Assembly (NCBI GenBank): GCA_043822705.1
Contig: JBDRBK010000128.1
Coordinates: forward strand, 1-44,485
DNA from: Fidelibacterota bacterium
GTDB lineage: Bacteria; Fidelibacterota; Marinisomatia; Marinisomatales; TCS56
Direction of reading: 5' to 3'
Length of the DNA: 44,485 nt
Shown here: positions 27,001 to 42,000 of the stretch, one piece after another
How the letters are laid out: the number at the start of each line of letters is the position of its first letter
Numbering within the stretch: the stretch's first letter is position 1
Made by a program: the position numbers

Positions 27001-30000
27001 CGGTCGGTCACTACTTTTTCCAGGTCCGCCGGCGCGACCGCACCCTGCGGCGTATCCAGGAAGTCCAGCGCGACGCCGAACGGCTGCAAATCCCACCAGG
27101 GGTAGACGTTGGAGGGGAACTCCATCCGGTGCAGGATGATCCGATCACCTTTCTGCCAGTCCAGACCGCGGGCCAGCAGGATCATACCGTCGGTGGTGTT
27201 GCGGACGGCGGCGACGCGTTCCTTGGGAGCATTGATCAGGCGGCCGAATTTCTCACGGGCCGCCACGGCCATATCCATGGTATCGAACCAGTTTTCAATT
27301 TTTTCGCCCTGGGCCTGGCGGATATAGGCCAGCAGGTTGGCCTTCACGCGGTTGTTCATCGGCGAGACAGCGGCATGATCCAGATAGACCATCTCGCGGT
27401 CGGTATGGGGAAATTCGGAACGGAATTTTTGCAGGTTGCTCATGCGTATTTATGAATCGGTGAAATTTTAATGATTAATTGGAAGCCCGGAAACTCCGCT
27501 TCCAGTTTTTCCTTGAGGGCCTGACAGCAACTGTTCTGCTGTTTTTTAGCGGCCCCGGGATTCATGTTGAGCCCGAACAGGATTACATGATGTTCGTCGG
27601 TGGCGACGATCCGCACATCGTGGAAGCCGGTTACGGTGGTCTCGCCCCGCAAGGTCGCCTGGAGGAAGTCGTGAACCTGGCGTACCAGCGGATGTTCGAT
27701 ATAGACCGGGTCCACGTGCACGGTGGGATTGATCCCCAAGCGGTCCGTGATCGCATCTTCCACCGCCTCGGAAATATCGTGGGTCCGCAGCACTTGCTGC
27801 CCGGCGTCGACCTCGATATGCAGGCTGGCGTATTTATCGCTGCCGTAGCTGTGAACGGTGATGTCGTGGGTACCCAGCACGCCGTTGATGGCCATGGCGG
27901 CCTGGCGGATTTCCTCTAATTCATCGTCACTGGGCGGTTTGCCGATCAGGTCATCGATGGCTTCCCGGGCGATTTCCCAGGCGGTCCCGAGAATGATCAG
28001 GGCCACGCCGACACCGGCCCAGCCATCCAGGTTACCGTAGCCGTAGCGTCCGGCGATCATGGCGATCACCACCAGCACCGATGAAATGGCGTCGGTCCGG
28101 TGATGCCAGGCATCGGCTTTCAGGGCCCCGGAAGCGATCCGGACGGCCAAAAATTCGGCATAGCGGGCGGTGATTTCCTTGATCACGATCGTCAAAATCA
28201 CGGCCACGATCATCCACCAACCGGCGATCATGATCCGCGGTTCCAGGATGCGCTCGATCCCGGATTTGACGAATTCGATCCCCACCACAGCCAGCATCAC
28301 TGCGATCACCAGCGTGGCGATGTACTCCGCCCGGCCGTGTCCGTAGGGGTGCTCGCTGTCAGCCGGTTTTTCCACGGCGTTGAAGCCCCAGATCACGACC
28401 ACCGACGACAGGACGTCTGACAGGGTGTGAATCGCGTCGGCCATCAGACTTATCGAACCGGTAAGCAGTCCCAGCACCAGTTTGACGATAAACAGTAGCG
28501 TGTTGACAATGACGGATACCCAGCCCTGGAATCTGCCGATCCGCGTGCGGTAATGCAAATCGTTGCCGGCTGGTACGAAACGACTGGTGAATGCTTCAAA
28601 TATTCCCATTAGCTAATCCTGATAAATTTAATCGATGGCGCTCAGGCCGGTGATGTTCTGTCCCACGATCAGGGTATGCATTTCGTGGGTGCCTTCGTAG
28701 GTATAGACCGATTCCAGGTTGGCGGCATGACGCTGGACCGGGTACTCGTCCAAAATGCCGTTGGCGCCGAGGATTTCGCGGGCGCTGCGGGCGATATCGC
28801 GGGCGATCCGGACGTTATTGCGCTTGGCCAGCGATACCTGGGTGTAGTCCATTTTGCCCGCATCCTTCAGACGCCCCAACCGGATCGCCAGCAGCAGCGC
28901 CTTGGTGATCTCCTCCAGCATGTCCACCAGTTTGGCCTGGGTCAACTGGTAACCGGCGATCGGCCGGCTGAATTGTTTACGCTCTTTGGCATAACGCAGG
29001 GCGGTTTCGTAACAGTCCACCGCCGCACCGATGGCCCCCCAGGCGATCGAATAGCGAGCCTGGGTCAGGCAGGACAGCGGTCCTTTCAGGCCTTCCACCC
29101 CCGGCAACACGGCCGTATCCGGTACGATCACGTCCTGCAGAATCAATTCGGAGGTCACCGAGGCCCGCAGGCTCAGTTTGCCTTCCATTTCCGGGGCGGA
29201 GAAACCGGCGGTGCCCTTTTCGACCAGAAAACCGCGGATTGTACCGGCGGCGTCTTTGGCCCAAACCAAGGCGACATCCGCCAGGCTGCCGTTGGTGATC
29301 CACATCTTGGCTCCGTTCAGTAACCAGCCGTCGCCGGTGCGTCTGACCCGGGTGAGCATCCCGCCGGGATTGGAACCGAAATCCGGTTCGGTCAGTCCAA
29401 AGCAACCGACGGCGGTCCCTGCGGACAGTTGCGGCAACCAGCGCCGTCGCTGTTCTTCCGAACCGTACTGCCAGATCGGGTACATCACCAGCCCGCCCTG
29501 GACGCTGGCGAAGGAGCGCAGGCCCGAGTCGCCCCGTTCCAGCTCGTGCATGATCAGGCCGTAGGCTACGTTGCTGACCGCCGACCCACCGGCCACTTCC
29601 GGCAGATTGGCGCCGAAAAAGCCCAGTTCTCCCAGCTGTGGAATCAGGTCCAGTGGGAAAGTGCCATGGCGGTAATGCTCCCGGATCAGGGGTAAAAATT
29701 TATCCCGGACGAAATCGTGGGCCGTTTGTTGGATCAGCAGTTCGTCTTCGGTGAGCAGGTCGGTGATATGGTAAAAATCCGGTCCGATGTATCGCATAAT
29801 GCAGAGAAATTACGGATGGAATGGAATAAGTTGGCATGAACAACATTTTAGAAATGGTAGGTGTAGGGACGACTCTCGAGAGTTGTCCCTACAAAATCGC
29901 ATATTAAAAAGGGGCATGGTCACGCATGCACCTGAAGTGTTACCTTCCAGGTCACAGAACAGCGACCTGGAAGGTTGTCCAAATCAAATCAGACCGAAAC

Positions 30001-39000: not shown

Positions 39001-42000
39001 TTTACTGTTTGTTGGGCTGCCTGAGGCGTATAAGTGACGCGCACATCAGAACGCGGTTTATCGCCTTTCGGTCCAACGGTGAATGATGGTGCCATAGCTG
39101 TCCTTGATCGTTGATCTTTATAACCACGAGTCCTGCGCCGAAGAATTTATCCTGACCTGCGAATGCCGGGCAATAAAAACCGGAGTACCGCGGTCGAAAA
39201 ACGGACGGGGGCATCGGACAGGTCGGGTGCTGGCGATTGAAAACGAGTTTAGCAACGGAAAACCCTGGATTATGAACACGGCAATCATTACGATATTGCA
39301 ATTCGGTTGATTATATTATACCCTTATAATCGACTTGATTTCCGAAGTGAGATACTAAATTTGGGAATAGTTATGCAAGCAATAGCTCCTTTATTCAAAA
39401 TTCATTCCGATAATCGGGGTTAGCAATGATTAGAAATCGACTCTTAAGCTGGTCCGTTTTACTCAGCCTGCTACTCACGGTCCAATGTACCGTTGACAGC
39501 GACAATATTACCGGTCCCAGCGACGAACCGGATAAATATATCGTGCTGAAAAGTCTGACCGCGAGTAAGAATCAGGTCTTCACCCAGGGCGATCAGGCAA
39601 TCATCGCATTGACCGTGGCCAACGCTGATGACCAGCCCCCGGATCCCGGTATCGCCGTGAAGTTTACCGCTCAACTGGGCCAGTTCGCCACCAGCACCGA
39701 TACCACCGATACCGGCGGTGTCGCCCGGGCGACCTATATATCCGGGGATGTTCCCGGAGTGGACAAGATATTCGCCAGTACCGGAATTAAAACCGATTCC
39801 CTGTTGCTCTACCTGGTCAACCAGGCCGCCGATCTGCAACTGACCGCCAGCGCGACCGCAATACTCGGCGACGGCGTCACGACCGCCACGATTACCGCCA
39901 GCGCCCGCGATGATGCCGACCAACCGCTGGCCAACATGCGGATTTATTTCAACAGCGATCACGGCCAGATCACCGCCAGCGGCACCACCGCCGGCGATGG
40001 TACCGTTCAGGCCACCCTCACCAGCGTCGCCGACAGCCTGGATGTGGTAACCGTGGTCCGGGCCGCCTTCGAACCATTCACTGCGGCAACAGCTAAAATC
40101 GTTCAAAGCGTACCGAATGTCAGTAAGGTTGCCGAACGTGAATTCAGGACCGCCGGTAGTAAAAAAATGGAGCGTATGCTGTCTAACCGACGGAAAACAA
40201 TTTTGGAAAAACCGACCACCGCGCCCATCCCCCAAACGTTGACAAGAACCACCGCCGGACTGTATGACAGTCTGACCGTCACCTTCCGGGGGATTACGAT
40301 TCTGCTGCAGAAAAACAAATCGGAACTGCTGGCCAACGGTGAGGACCTGGCCAATATTACCATCACCGTCTACGAAACCACTACCGGCAATCCGGTGACC
40401 AATCACAGTTTTACCGCCACGACTACCCGGGGCACCGTCCTCGGGGATTCCCGCACCGACGGCAGCGGCCGGGCCACAATCCAACTGCGCAGCGGCACGG
40501 TTCCCGGCACCGCCACGGTCAATGTTACCATCGGCGGCACTCTGATCAGCAGTACCAAAATCAATTTCATCTCGACCTATCCGACCCATTTCAGCTTGTC
40601 CCAGAGCGACCATATTATCCTGGCCGACGGCCAGTCGGCGGCCACGATAACGGCACTGGTGATCGACACCCTGGGTAATCCGGTTCAGGGCGCCGGCATC
40701 CTGATCAGCAGCGACCTGGGTGACCTGGAATACGTCACCACCATCACCAACGCCGACGGCGAAGTGGAAGTGGATCTGATCAGCTTGGCTAATAAAACCG
40801 ATATGACCGCCACCGTCCGGGCCAGCGTAGTCGGGTATCCCAGACTCGCCGACAGCGTCACCGTCGACTTCAAGGGTATCACCCTTTCGGCCTATGCCAA
40901 TGATAATCTGCTGGTGGCCAATGGCATCAACACAACAACGGTCACAGCTGTAGTGTTCCAAACATCGACCAACAGTGCCGTCGCCGGCCGGCCGGTGTAT
41001 TTTTCCACATCCCTGGGAACGATTGCCAGTCCGGTGACCAGCTCCAGCAGCGGCGTGGCCGCTACCACCCTGACCAGCGGTATATTTCCCGGCCTGGCCA
41101 CCATCGTGGTGCGTTTCGGCGATCTGCTGACCGATACACTGACGGTCGAATATTTAAGCAGCGGCGCTAACAATCTGGTGCTGGCCCGTGATCAGGAAGC
41201 GATCCGCGCAAACGGCAAGGCCACAACCACGATCAGCGCCACCGTGACCGATACCCTGGGCGATCCCGTTTCCGGCACGCTGGTCAATTTCAGTACCGGC
41301 GCCGGGACTTTGAGCAACCTGTACGCCACCAGCGACGTGGACGGCATCGCCCTGGTCGTTCTGACCGGCCCCGCCAGCGTCATCGATCTGACCACCACAG
41401 TGCGTGCCAGCGTCAATACCAGCCTCAACCGCAGTCTGCTGGCCGGCAATATTTACGATCCCGCCCTGCCGACGCTTCGCTATACCACGGCTTCCGGACC
41501 GATTCGACCGCGTAGCGCCGCCATTCCGGCCACGGCCGCCCTCAATGACAGCGTCCAGGTCAGCTTCAAGGGGATCACCGTCGATTCCTACGCTACGGAC
41601 CAGGCCATCGTGGCCGACGGCAGCAGCCACACCACGATTATCGCCACCGTGCGCGAAACTTCAACCAATATTCCGGTTCAGGACGAGACCGTCCTGTTCA
41701 GTACCAACCTGGGTACGATCTCCGGGGCGCTCAACACCTCGGCCAGCGGCGTAGCCAGCGGCACCCTGACCAGCGGCCTGATTGCCGGCACGGCGCGGGT
41801 GATAATCCGCTACGGCGCCACCCTGTACGATACGACGACCGTGGATTTCTTCGACTCCGAGCCGGACCAGTTCACACTGGAGCTGAATCCCGCCACAGTT
41901 CTGGCTGACGGTCAGGCCACCCTGACACTGACGGCCCTGATTCTGGACACCCTCGATAATCCGGTGACCAGCGAAGCAGTCAGCTTCAGCACAACCCTAG

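What a model noticed while it worked through the whole genome (the two positions that open the first line are those of the whole stretch)
28628..39095. Six-gene homocitrate-type tricarboxylate operon: fungal Lys4-type homoaconitase + PrpD-fold dehydratase + decarboxylatin [...]
citD-citE fusion, citF, an HD-fold protein lacking the first His of the HD motif, a monomeric fungal-type homoaconitase, an isocitrate/isopropylmalate-family dehydrogenase and a PrpD-fold protein form one operon, here followed by glutaryl-CoA dehydrogenase. It reads as an undescribed route linking 2-oxoadipate and homocitrate, with a homocitrate lyase in place of homocitrate synthase, and the lyase lacks the usual CitC/CitG activation genes.
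Evidence so far: g01977 is 56% identical to fungal Lys4 over its length and passes TIGR00139 (853 bits, cut 530), while the dehydrogenase, PrpD-like and CitE fall below their family cuts. Of 80 loci around homoaconitase relatives from Ignavibacteria, Acidobacteria, Gemmatimonadota, Planctomycetota, Verrucomicrobia, Zixibacteria and others: HD protein 58, dehydrogenase 58, PrpD 49, CitDE 40, CitF 39; 7 carry succinyl-CoA-synthetase-like genes instead of the lyase. ACP serine motif RSD invariant; HD His replaced in 59 of 59. citG and citC absent here and in 0 of 30 operon-bearing genomes; homocitrate synthase over cut-off in 0 of 30. Saccharopine/aminoadipate-semialdehyde genes lie on C13; the aldehyde dehydro [...]
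(Added by a program. Inside this text positions count along the whole contig: contig position 1 is position 1 of the stretch shown here. "Call 12" and the like, gene names such as g00115 and contig names such as C1 are that model's own, and its searches are not shown. The text may have been shortened before it was handed on; [...] marks where a part breaks off. The agent that wrote the report below was given it as the finding of a first reader that could run no searches.)

Follow-up and report, generated by a model that had tools for sequence, protein, structure and literature searches.

The report
Reverse homocitrate route for lysine breakdown
Six linked genes, kept together in many soil and sediment bacteria, look built to run the first half of the fungal lysine-making pathway backwards, adding CO2 to the lysine breakdown product 2-oxoadipate and splitting it into 2-oxoglutarate and acetate; no enzyme has been tested.

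Summary
The operon is real: citD-citE fusion, citF, HD protein, Lys4-type homoaconitase, dehydrogenase, PrpD-fold protein. Two inverted-repeat-flanked passenger genes interrupt it, and gcdH is not a core member. Substrate: genomes with a LysW lysine cluster lacking homoaconitase/HICDH have this operon's pair as their best or only candidates (G003), so the C7 homocitrate series is well supported. Direction, inferred: cleavage. The dehydrogenase has an NADP-type signature (72 of 72 sequences); the lyase is swapped for an ATP-citrate-lyase-like module elsewhere; it coexists with homocitrate synthase; 19 of 41 genomes have dapB; 28 of 29 non-Acidobacteria have a lysine-catabolic entry gene. Si-specific lyases plus PrpD imply (S)-homocitrate, the mirror image of the biosynthetic intermediate. 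Correction: the ACP attachment serine aligns with Arg/Lys (38 of 38), and CitG and CitX are absent (0 of 41), so the lyase probably uses free CoA. Eukaryotic homoaconitases nest in this bacterial family (AU test not significant). Open: HD function, substrate source in Acidobacteria (0 of 12 have an entry gene), direction. No description found in ten literature searches; the scan reported this operon before on other genomes. Untested biochemically.

The parts
37881..39095 (-). CitD-like domain (about residues 1-95) fused to a CitE-family C-C lyase; attachment serine replaced by Arg15 (pseudo-ACP); proposed (S)-homocitryl-CoA lyase
   Evidence: PF06857 + PF03328; TIGR01588 276.6/443.4, TIGR01608 44/63.5; 42% identical to E. 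coli CitE; R15 aligned with E. coli CitD S14
37442..37883 (-). Passenger cassette: GxxExxY gene (37471-37842) between 29-nt inverted repeats (37442-37470, 37855-37883)
   Evidence: TIGR04256 144/35; arms 90% complementary; folds as a long stem, z -5.8; a GxxExxY match in 1 of 80 related loci
35878..37437 (-). CitF-family CoA/ACP transferase; proposed acetyl-CoA:(S)-homocitrate CoA-transferase
   Evidence: TIGR01584 518.6/501.45; 41% identical to E. coli CitF
35464..35877 (-). Passenger cassette: four-helix intervening-sequence protein gene (35485-35847) between AT-rich inverted repeats (35464-35492, 35849-35877)
   Evidence: TIGR02436, PF05635; arms 79% complementary
34910..35443 (-). HD-fold protein, YhaM-HD-like, His of the HD motif replaced (Ile98), other metal-type ligands invariant; constant member of all three operon variants; role not established
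   Evidence: Model pLDDT 93.7; best fold match YhaM 9h3f, Z 15.4, rmsd 3.2, 157 aligned; invariant H61, D99, H124, H143, H148, E151, R157, E160, H165, D168; fused to homoaconitase in P0405
32840..34810 (-). Monomeric Lys4-type homoaconitase (homoaconitate <-> homoisocitrate)
   Evidence: TIGR00139 853.3/529.9; small-domain loop motif shared with eukaryotic homoaconitases; groups with them in the tree
31566..32762 (-). Beta-decarboxylating dehydrogenase, proposed NADP(H)-dependent homoisocitrate dehydrogenase
   Evidence: PF00180; own clade apart from IDH and LeuB; K318-Y319 in the coenzyme loop, where the HICDH structures 1x0l/3asj have D-I
29989..31428 (-). MmgE/PrpD-family protein, proposed (S)-homocitrate dehydratase
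   Evidence: PF03972 + PF19305; shares HPSD, FPxE and DH motifs with E. coli PrpD where cis-aconitate decarboxylase differs
28628..29797 (-). Glutaryl-CoA dehydrogenase; a neighbour 191 nt downstream, not part of the conserved core
   Evidence: Nine of the ten best PDB hits are named glutaryl-CoA dehydrogenase; a gcdH-like gene in 4 of 80 loci

Best explanation
A catabolic 'reverse homocitrate' route. (1) The dehydrogenase reductively carboxylates 2-oxoadipate with CO2 and NADPH to homoisocitrate. (2) The Lys4-type enzyme dehydrates it to cis-homoaconitate. (3) The PrpD-fold enzyme hydrates that to (S)-homocitrate, the enantiomer of the biosynthetic (R)-homocitrate. (4) CitF moves CoA from acetyl-CoA onto (S)-homocitrate, releasing acetate, and CitE cleaves (S)-homocitryl-CoA to 2-oxoglutarate and acetyl-CoA, using free CoA because the fused CitD domain has lost its attachment serine. 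Net: 2-oxoadipate + CO2 + NADPH -> 2-oxoglutarate + acetate + NADP+. In this genome 2-oxoadipate comes from lysine through the saccharopine enzymes and P6C dehydrogenase on contig C13. Other lineages use an ATP-dependent CoA ligase + citryl-CoA-lyase module for step 4. Steps 1-2 are reversible and are borrowed for lysine synthesis in genomes with a LysW cluster. The HD protein is most likely a small-molecule metalloenzyme that serves the isomerase steps (for example a lactonase or side-product repair enzyme), not an ACP-maturation factor. Shown: gene content, motifs, co-occurrence. Inferred: every activity, the stereochemistry and the direction.
For: Substrate: five genomes hold lysX-lysY-lysZ-lysJ plus a homocitrate-synthase-like gene, with no homoaconitase or HICDH gene in the cluster and no dapB over cut-off; in G003 the only aconitase-family genes are a 757-aa-frame aconitase and the operon's, and the only PF00180 gene is the operon's. 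LysX (8 of 41) and dapB (19 of 41) never co-occur (Fisher p 0.004, kinship not corrected). G000 has separate CS-aconitase-IDH and leu genes. Direction: NADP-type HGSAPKY in 53 of 53 plus 19 of 19 sequences, against HGSAPDI in solved HICDHs; lyase coexists with homocitrate synthase; ATP-citrate-lyase-like replacement in 7 of 80 loci and 13 complete metagenome loci; prpD lies next to the P6C-dehydrogenase/lysine-aminotransferase pair in 5 of 5 Verrucomicrobiota genomes; 28 of 29 non-Acidobacteria have LAT, P6C-DH or AASS-type SDH; G000 has P6C-DH (772/730) beside LKR/SDH-like genes and no LysX or homocitrate synthase. Stereochemistry: CitE and CitF act on (3S)-citryl thioesters (family name; PMC8085960 passages); PrpD does the syn elimination on the Si-type product and fungal homoaconitase does only homoaconitate <-> homoisocitrate (PMC3556520 passages and Table 1). 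Free CoA: R/K at the attachment position in 38 of 38; CitG and CitX 0 of 41, CitC not found in 5; acetyl-CoA is a listed substrate of EC 2.8.3.10.
Against: All 12 Acidobacteriota genomes keep the full operon but have no LAT, P6C-DH or AASS-type SDH by my thresholds (six have weaker PF16653 hits of 43-136 bits that I did not count), and only 2 have a strong 3-HAO, so their 2-oxoadipate source is unexplained. A GCDH-like gene (51% identity or more) is in 32 of 41 genomes, so the standard exit for 2-oxoadipate already exists, and here gcdH follows the operon. A rough energy sum with recalled citrate-series values is near equilibrium (about +4 kJ/mol standard; -10 to +7 with NADPH by condition), and ATP-citrate lyase is known to run backwards (title of Moller et al. 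1987 in the reference list of PMC8085960). NADP-IDHs run oxidatively, so the motif alone does not fix direction. I ran no control on related genomes that lack the operon, so the lysine-catabolism association may be lineage background; the five Verrucomicrobiota are kin and count as about one event. The dehydrogenase passes no HICDH cut-off, and its substrate loop could not be assigned. A. fumigatus LysF shows some activity with citrate and isocitrate.
Confidence: 0.55

Rival explanations
1. Same chemistry, opposite direction: the lyase (or the ATP-type module run backwards, gaining ATP) condenses 2-oxoglutarate and an acetyl unit to (S)-homocitrate, and the operon makes 2-oxoadipate for lysine or glutaryl-CoA.
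For: Near-equilibrium energetics, oxidative direction favoured at low CO2 or with NAD(H) (recalled values). The homoaconitase/dehydrogenase pair very probably runs this way in LysW genomes. gcdH follows the operon here and in L030. Acidobacteria have no lysine-catabolic entry gene. 11 of 41 genomes, including G000, show neither dapB nor LysX.
Against: LysW genomes keep their own homocitrate synthase beside the lyase operon. 19 of 41 genomes have dapB and no LysX. G000 has no LysX, and its P6C dehydrogenase is a catabolic family. bioB over cut-off in 0 of 5 genomes, against a biotin-precursor role. The I. album paper finds no complete lysine pathway in an organism with a citDE fusion + citF (I did not verify that its locus is this operon).
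Confidence: 0.2
2. The module handles another Si-configured hydroxy acid, for example (S)-citramalate <-> citraconate <-> 3-methylmalate <-> 2-oxobutanoate, or an imported plant or fungal tricarboxylate or 2-aminoadipate; homocitrate is a side activity or only one of several substrates.
For: CitDEF-like complexes include citramalate lyases (PMC8085960 passages; a citDEF set lies beside methylaspartate genes in P. acidaminophilum). PrpD-like, CitE and dehydrogenase all fall below named family cut-offs. The Anaerolineae-like variant uses a two-subunit hydratase that passes both hacA_fam and IPMI_arch. Explains Acidobacteria without lysine catabolism.
Against: The hydratase passes the homoaconitase equivalog and nests with eukaryotic homoaconitases. 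G003 has no other candidate for the C7 steps. No transporter family recurs among the 80 loci, apart from an MFS-like gene in some metagenome loci.
Confidence: 0.13
3. A second, reductive citrate arm (2-oxoglutarate + CO2 -> isocitrate -> citrate -> oxaloacetate + acetate), the ATP-independent citrate lyase reading proposed for Ignavibacterium album.
For: CitF passes the citrate lyase alpha equivalog. NADP-type dehydrogenase; the region around its substrate helix matches E. coli IDH best. Published suggestion for I. album (PMC3362086 passages). LysF has some citrate/isocitrate activity.
Against: G000 has a full CS-aconitase-IDH cluster, so a Lys4-type enzyme and a PrpD would be redundant; citrate needs no PrpD step. 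CitE and CitD miss their cut-offs; no CitC, CitG or CitX. The dehydrogenases form a clade apart from IDH.
Confidence: 0.08

Closest known systems
Upper alpha-aminoadipate pathway (fungal Lys20/21, aconitase + Lys4, Lys12; Thermus LysS/LysTU/Hicdh)
   Same: Homoaconitase of the Lys4 family (TIGR00139 passed) and a beta-decarboxylating dehydrogenase; very probably the same homoaconitate/homoisocitrate/2-oxoadipate intermediates.
   Different: No homocitrate synthase in the operon; a Si-type lyase and a PrpD-fold enzyme instead, implying (S)- rather than (R)-homocitrate; NADP-type rather than NAD-type coenzyme loop; found in dapB-bearing and in apparently lysine-auxotrophic genomes.
Citrate lyase CitDEF (EC 4.1.3.6) and citramalate lyase (EC 4.1.3.22)
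   Same: CitF 41% and CitE 42% identical to E. coli subunits; CitD-like domain (hhalign probability 98%).
   Different: CitD fused to CitE; attachment serine replaced by Arg/Lys; CitC, CitG, CitX not found; linked to homoaconitase, PrpD-like and dehydrogenase genes, with no citrate transporter or oxaloacetate decarboxylase in the loci.
Citrate-cleaving arm of the reductive TCA cycle (IDH, aconitase, ATP-citrate lyase or CCS + CCL)
   Same: Same logic: carboxylate a 2-oxo acid, isomerise, cleave off a C2 unit; the alternative module has SCS-like beta and alpha chains plus a citryl-CoA lyase domain.
   Different: One carbon longer; needs two hydro-lyases; hosts are heterotrophs; the ligase chains score closer to SCS than to ACL or CCS structures.
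2-Methylcitrate cycle (PrpC, PrpD, AcnB, PrpB)
   Same: A PrpD-fold dehydratase paired with an aconitase-family enzyme that does only the iso-side step, on the product geometry of a Si-type enzyme.
   Different: Below all PrpD cut-offs; no methylcitrate synthase or methylisocitrate lyase; a dehydrogenase is present, which could not oxidise the tertiary alcohol of 2-methylisocitrate.
YhaM-type HD domain
   Same: Best fold match (Z 15.4).
   Different: No OB domain; HD His replaced in this family but kept in distant relatives of Agrobacterium and haloarchaea, which lie in other contexts.

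Membership tests
Citrate lyase CitDEF | CitF alpha subunit over the TIGR01584 cut-off | tested here: met
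   518.6/501.45
Citrate lyase CitDEF | CitE beta and CitD gamma over their cut-offs | tested here: not met
   276.6/443.4 and 44/63.5
Citrate lyase CitDEF | ACP serine for the phosphoribosyl-dephospho-CoA group (E. coli Ser14, recalled; MdcC Ser25, PMC5534430) | tested here: not met
   Arg in 36 and Lys in 2 of 38 at that position; the conserved Ser16 aligns with E. coli Gly15 and with the second serine of the P. acidaminophilum ESSD motif; weak MdcC match in the same register. A one-residue shift of the site cannot be excluded without experiment.
Citrate lyase CitDEF | Activation genes citC, citG, citX in the genome | tested here: not met
   CitG 0 of 41, CitX 0 of 41 (controls rang in E. coli); CitC: only weak hits in 172-183 aa frames in 2 of 5 genomes. 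Genomes are MAGs; G000 is 93% complete.
Citrate lyase CitDEF | Cleaves citrate | not testable with these tools
   needs an assay
Lys4/LysF homoaconitase | TIGR00139 cut-off; monomeric large + small domain; three cluster cysteines | tested here: met
   853.3/529.9; C333, C393, C396 invariant in 59 sequences
Lys4/LysF homoaconitase | Groups with eukaryotic homoaconitases | tested here: met
   28-row clade with 8 eukaryote-type and 20 bacterial rows, 100/99
Lys4/LysF homoaconitase | Acts on homoaconitate/homoisocitrate and not on homocitrate | not testable with these tools
   indirect support from LysW genomes
Homoisocitrate dehydrogenase | Passes a named HICDH model | tested here: not met
   AksF2 244.5/540, AksF 232.4/500, NF040855 128/680
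Homoisocitrate dehydrogenase | NAD-type coenzyme loop (D-I after HGSAP) | tested here: not met
   K-Y in 72 of 72 family sequences; D-I in 1x0l and 3asj; that K-Y marks NADP use is recalled from E. coli IDH work and fits G000's own NADP-IDH
Homoisocitrate dehydrogenase | Substrate-specificity loop of the HICDH type | tested here: inconclusive
   the loop carries an insertion; best local matches are E. coli IDH, with S. pombe HICDH at E 0.2
2-Methylcitrate dehydratase PrpD | Passes a PrpD equivalog | tested here: not met
   94/575, 84.8/950, 66.3/458
2-Methylcitrate dehydratase PrpD | Dehydratase-type conserved motifs (HPSD, FPxE, DH) | tested here: met
   family profile against E. coli PrpD, E 2.5e-31; CAD differs at all three. 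That these motifs are diagnostic is my inference from two references.
ATP-citrate lyase / CCS + CCL (alternative module, other genomes) | SCS-like beta and alpha chains plus a citryl-CoA lyase domain | tested here: met
   NF004869 and NF004866 over cut-off; SCS models below cut-off; 6hxp citryl-CoA lyase E 2.9e-55
Canonical HD phosphohydrolase | His-Asp doublet | tested here: not met
   Ala 32, Ile 16, Leu 1, Cys 1 of 50
Complete alpha-aminoadipate lysine synthesis in G000 | Homocitrate synthase and LysX/LysW (or a Lys2-type reductase) | tested here: not met
   HMGL-like hits are LeuA, CimA and one weak other; LysX best 35.6/275.6; a Lys2-type reductase was not searched

The most novel reading that the evidence does not exclude
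A widespread, NADPH-driven, CO2-incorporating 'homo-reductive-TCA arm' that runs through (S)-homocitrate, uses a citrate-lyase-like complex freed from its prosthetic group, and is the ancestral setting of eukaryotic Lys4, which would explain why fungal homoaconitase does only half of the isomerisation: its original partner was a PrpD-fold enzyme.
Probability: 0.3. Interest if true: 0.87.

Novelty: new variant of a known kind. Interest (0 to 1): 0.74.

Why it matters
If true, this is a further exit for 2-oxoadipate, beside oxidative decarboxylation to glutaryl-CoA and the oxygen-dependent HglS step. It would need no oxygen, consume reducing power and fix CO2, in abundant soil and sediment phyla. 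It would add an unreported enantiomer of homocitrate, a prosthetic-group-free form of citrate lyase, and an NADP-type homoisocitrate dehydrogenase of use in adipate and C6-C7 pathway engineering. It warns that 'citrate lyase' and 'ATP-citrate lyase' annotations in these heterotrophs are not markers of the reductive TCA cycle. It offers a testable origin for fungal Lys4. All six proteins are small soluble enzymes that can be tested directly.

Tried and rejected
HD protein as a CitG/CitX substitute or ACP hydrolase: rejected, because it is kept in 7 of 7 ATP-type loci that have no ACP and the ACP site is lost. HD function by sequence, atlas and fold searches: only generic HD matches. HD fusions to the AcnX swivel domain lie in unrelated neighbourhoods; the citrate-synthase 'fusion' P0430 looks like a frame artefact. 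Biotin-precursor chain elongation: bioB over cut-off in 0 of 5. Tryptophan as the Acidobacteria substrate source: strong 3-HAO in 2 of 12. HglS 0 of 5. SucA absent in G000 and present in 3-4 of the other 4; G000 has 2-oxoacid:ferredoxin oxidoreductases; not decisive. 2-Methylcitrate as substrate: rejected on chemistry (tertiary alcohol). Promoter and terminator scans were at shuffle level (15 against 12.0; 19 against 14.3). No RNA holder was listed. Eukaryotic nesting: the AU test did not reject a bacteria-only clade (p 0.09). Among 25 genomes whose homoaconitase locus lacked the full set, prpD lay somewhere in 18; LysX was in 4 of 7 without prpD and 3 of 18 with it (p 0.066): a hint only. In one search my LAT reference was the wrong frame, so LAT genes there are identified by the coordinates. 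Literature searches gave no description of the operon or of a homocitrate lyase; the library lacks most subscription papers and I read no supplements.

Full report
Anatomy. The minus strand from 39095 to 28628 encodes a CitD-CitE fusion, a GxxExxY protein, CitF, a four-helix intervening-sequence protein, an HD-fold protein, a 656-aa aconitase-family protein, a beta-decarboxylating dehydrogenase, a PrpD-fold protein and glutaryl-CoA dehydrogenase, with gaps of 30-191 nt. The two extra genes are low in GC (34% and 39% against 53% for the genome) and are bracketed by 29-nt inverted repeats; each has a match in only 1 of 80 related loci, so they are passengers. The genome (93% complete, 6% contamination) has separate citrate synthase-aconitase-IDH and leucine clusters; this operon is a third hydratase/dehydrogenase pair.

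Conservation. Of the best 80 of 587 loci around homoaconitase relatives, 59 carry the dehydrogenase, 58 HD, 50 PrpD, 41 CitDE, 39 CitF and 4 a gcdH-like gene; 34 hold all six genes. Gene order differs between Ignavibacteria, Marinimicrobia and Acidobacteria/Gemmatimonadota, so the set is kept through rearrangement. Seven loci (Verrucomicrobiota, Planctomycetota) replace CitDEF with SCS-like beta and alpha chains plus a citryl-CoA lyase domain over cut-off, never together with CitDE or CitF. A third form, in metagenome loci found with a Chloroflexi HD protein, has that ATP-type module, HD, a two-subunit HacAB-type hydratase, the same dehydrogenase family and PrpD (13 complete of 53 loci, many short), often beside a 2-oxoacid:ferredoxin oxidoreductase. 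The constants are HD, dehydrogenase and PrpD; hydratase and lyase are each exchanged for a non-orthologous enzyme of the same reaction type. That is what a real pathway looks like.

Substrate. The hydratase passes TIGR00139, shares the small-domain loop motif with eukaryotic homoaconitases and groups with them. The strongest evidence is genomic need. I searched 41 genomes: G000, 33 chosen from the 41 CitDE loci, and all 7 ATP-type. Eight have LysX and none of these has dapB over cut-off; 19 have dapB. In five LysX genomes I read the cluster: lysX, lysY/argC, lysZ, lysJ and a homocitrate-synthase-like gene (one over cut-off, four at 338-355 bits; lysW confirmed by HMM in two), with no homoaconitase or HICDH gene. 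In G003 the whole genome has two aconitase-family genes and one PF00180 gene, and the operon supplies one of the former and the latter. G002, G006 and G009 add only leucine and TCA enzymes; G014 has one extra gene of each family and is not a clean case. So the pair very probably handles homoaconitate, homoisocitrate and 2-oxoadipate (my estimate 0.85).

Stereochemistry (inference from established chemistry). CitE/CitF act on (3S)-citryl thioesters (PMC8085960, passages). The same geometry applied to 2-oxoglutarate gives (S)-homocitrate by CIP ranking (my derivation), whereas the biosynthetic compound is (R) (PMC3556520, passages). Aconitase removes water towards the other arm of a Si product (PMC5690661, passages); PrpD is the enzyme that dehydrates a Si product, (2S,3S)-methylcitrate, towards the acyl-derived arm by syn elimination, and fungal homoaconitases do only the homoaconitate/homoisocitrate step (PMC3556520, passages and Table 1). 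The operon's PrpD-like protein keeps the HPSD, FPxE and DH motifs of E. coli PrpD, where cis-aconitate decarboxylase differs. A Si lyase, a PrpD and a half-reaction homoaconitase thus fit together exactly for (S)-homocitrate.

The lyase lacks its carrier site. Profile alignment puts Arg15 on E. coli CitD Ser14, Ser16 on Gly15 and Asp17 on Asp16. That Ser14 is the attachment site is recalled; the equivalent MdcC Ser25 is documented (PMC5534430, passages) and a weak MdcC match has the same register. Position 15 is Arg or Lys in 38 of 38. CitG and CitX are absent from 41 of 41 genomes and CitC was not found in 5. Citrate CoA-transferase accepts acetyl-CoA, so free CoA is the simplest reading; the invariant basic residue may bind its phosphate (speculation).

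Direction. For cleavage: the dehydrogenase coenzyme loop reads HGSAPKY in 53 of 53 genome and 19 of 19 metagenome sequences, like G000's NADP-IDH and unlike the D-I loop of solved HICDHs. The lyase operon coexists with homocitrate synthase. An ATP-consuming module replaces it elsewhere. In five Verrucomicrobiota genomes prpD lies next to the P6C-dehydrogenase/lysine 6-aminotransferase pair, in one with gcdH between. 28 of 29 non-Acidobacteria have LAT (15 of 41 over cut-off, one more split), P6C-DH (24 of 41 at E 1e-120, 21 over cut-off) or an AASS-type SDH (10, counted at 215 bits or more). G000 has P6C-DH beside LKR- and SDH-like genes, lysA, but no dapA, dapB, LysX or homocitrate synthase over cut-off. 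Against: none of 12 Acidobacteriota has such an entry gene; 32 of 41 genomes have GCDH; no control set without the operon was run; and a sketch with recalled citrate-series energies is near equilibrium, favouring cleavage with NADPH and high CO2 and synthesis at low CO2 or with NADH. I put cleavage as the main role at about 0.65, and the full mechanism at 0.55.

HD protein. Confident model, best match the YhaM HD domain. The HD His is lost only in this family; distant relatives keep it and lie in other catabolic contexts. It is fused to the homoaconitase in one five-member cluster and to an aconitase-X swivel domain in about 20 clusters. I read it as an accessory of the hydratase steps, most likely a lactonase or side-product repair enzyme; this is weak.

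Evolution. In a 40-row tree of the large domain, eight eukaryote-type rows (five named: Serendipita, Colletotrichum, Puccinia, Amoeboaphelidium, Spongospora; three assigned from N-terminal extensions) fall inside the bacterial family: a 28-row clade at 100/99 that excludes four bacterial rows, and a 19-row group with FCB bacteria at 92/92. The AU test did not reject a bacteria-only clade (p 0.09; a 72-row quick tree agreed). Origin of Lys4 from this family is therefore suggested, not shown. PMC3556520 used only Thermus and archaeal homoaconitases in its tree (passages); PMC4339202 says bacteria do not conserve Lys4 (passages).

Literature. Ten searches (listings and abstract starts) found no description. 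The nearest is the I. album genome paper, which notes a citE-citD fusion with citF, reads it as citrate lyase that may complete a reverse TCA cycle, and finds no complete lysine pathway (PMC3362086, passages); I did not verify that locus. PMC3534657 and PMC9560492 (passages) add nothing on it. I read no supplements, and subscription papers are mostly missing. Eight earlier notes of this scan describe the same operon in other genomes; I had written my reading before seeing them and do not count them as support.

Verdict. A real, conserved, apparently undescribed pathway module built from known enzyme families; new variant of a known kind; interest 0.74.

Noticed in passing
window 37442-37883 and 35464-35877: Two inverted-repeat-bracketed passenger genes (GxxExxY; four-helix IVP) at operon junctions; other junctions (31429-31565, 32763-32839, 34811-34909) hold AT-rich repeat-like spacers without a gene.
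   Followed up: partly
L207, L208, L209, L210 (Ignavibacteria LysW clusters): These clusters have an EgtC-like (TIGR03442, weak) gene between lysY and lysZ and no lysK in the stretch read; it may replace the LysW-lysine hydrolase.
   Followed up: no
P0411 family, loci L122-L148: Chloroflexi proteins fusing an aconitase-X swivel domain (PF01989) to the His-less HD domain, with no metabolic operon around them.
   Followed up: partly
G000:C177:5664-6920; C121:3277-5831: Genome has lysA, and asd- and aspartokinase-like ORFs, but no dapA or dapB over cut-off: an incomplete DAP route or an assembly gap.
   Followed up: partly
window 22370-24124 (+): GNAT acetyltransferase domain fused to a histone-deacetylase-family domain.
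   Followed up: no
window 24208-25266 (-): HTH + HATPase_c + DUF4325 (STAS-like) protein.
   Followed up: no
window 39426-44485 (+): Open-ended ORF of at least 1686 aa with many Thr/Ala-rich repeats of about 100 aa, probably an Ig-like surface protein (family name not tested).
   Followed up: no
L046:12198-14627 and L043:9102-11873: Long frames that join the dehydrogenase with CitDE, or run into CitF, in single genomes; may be assembly errors or true fusions.
   Followed up: no
   Followed up: no
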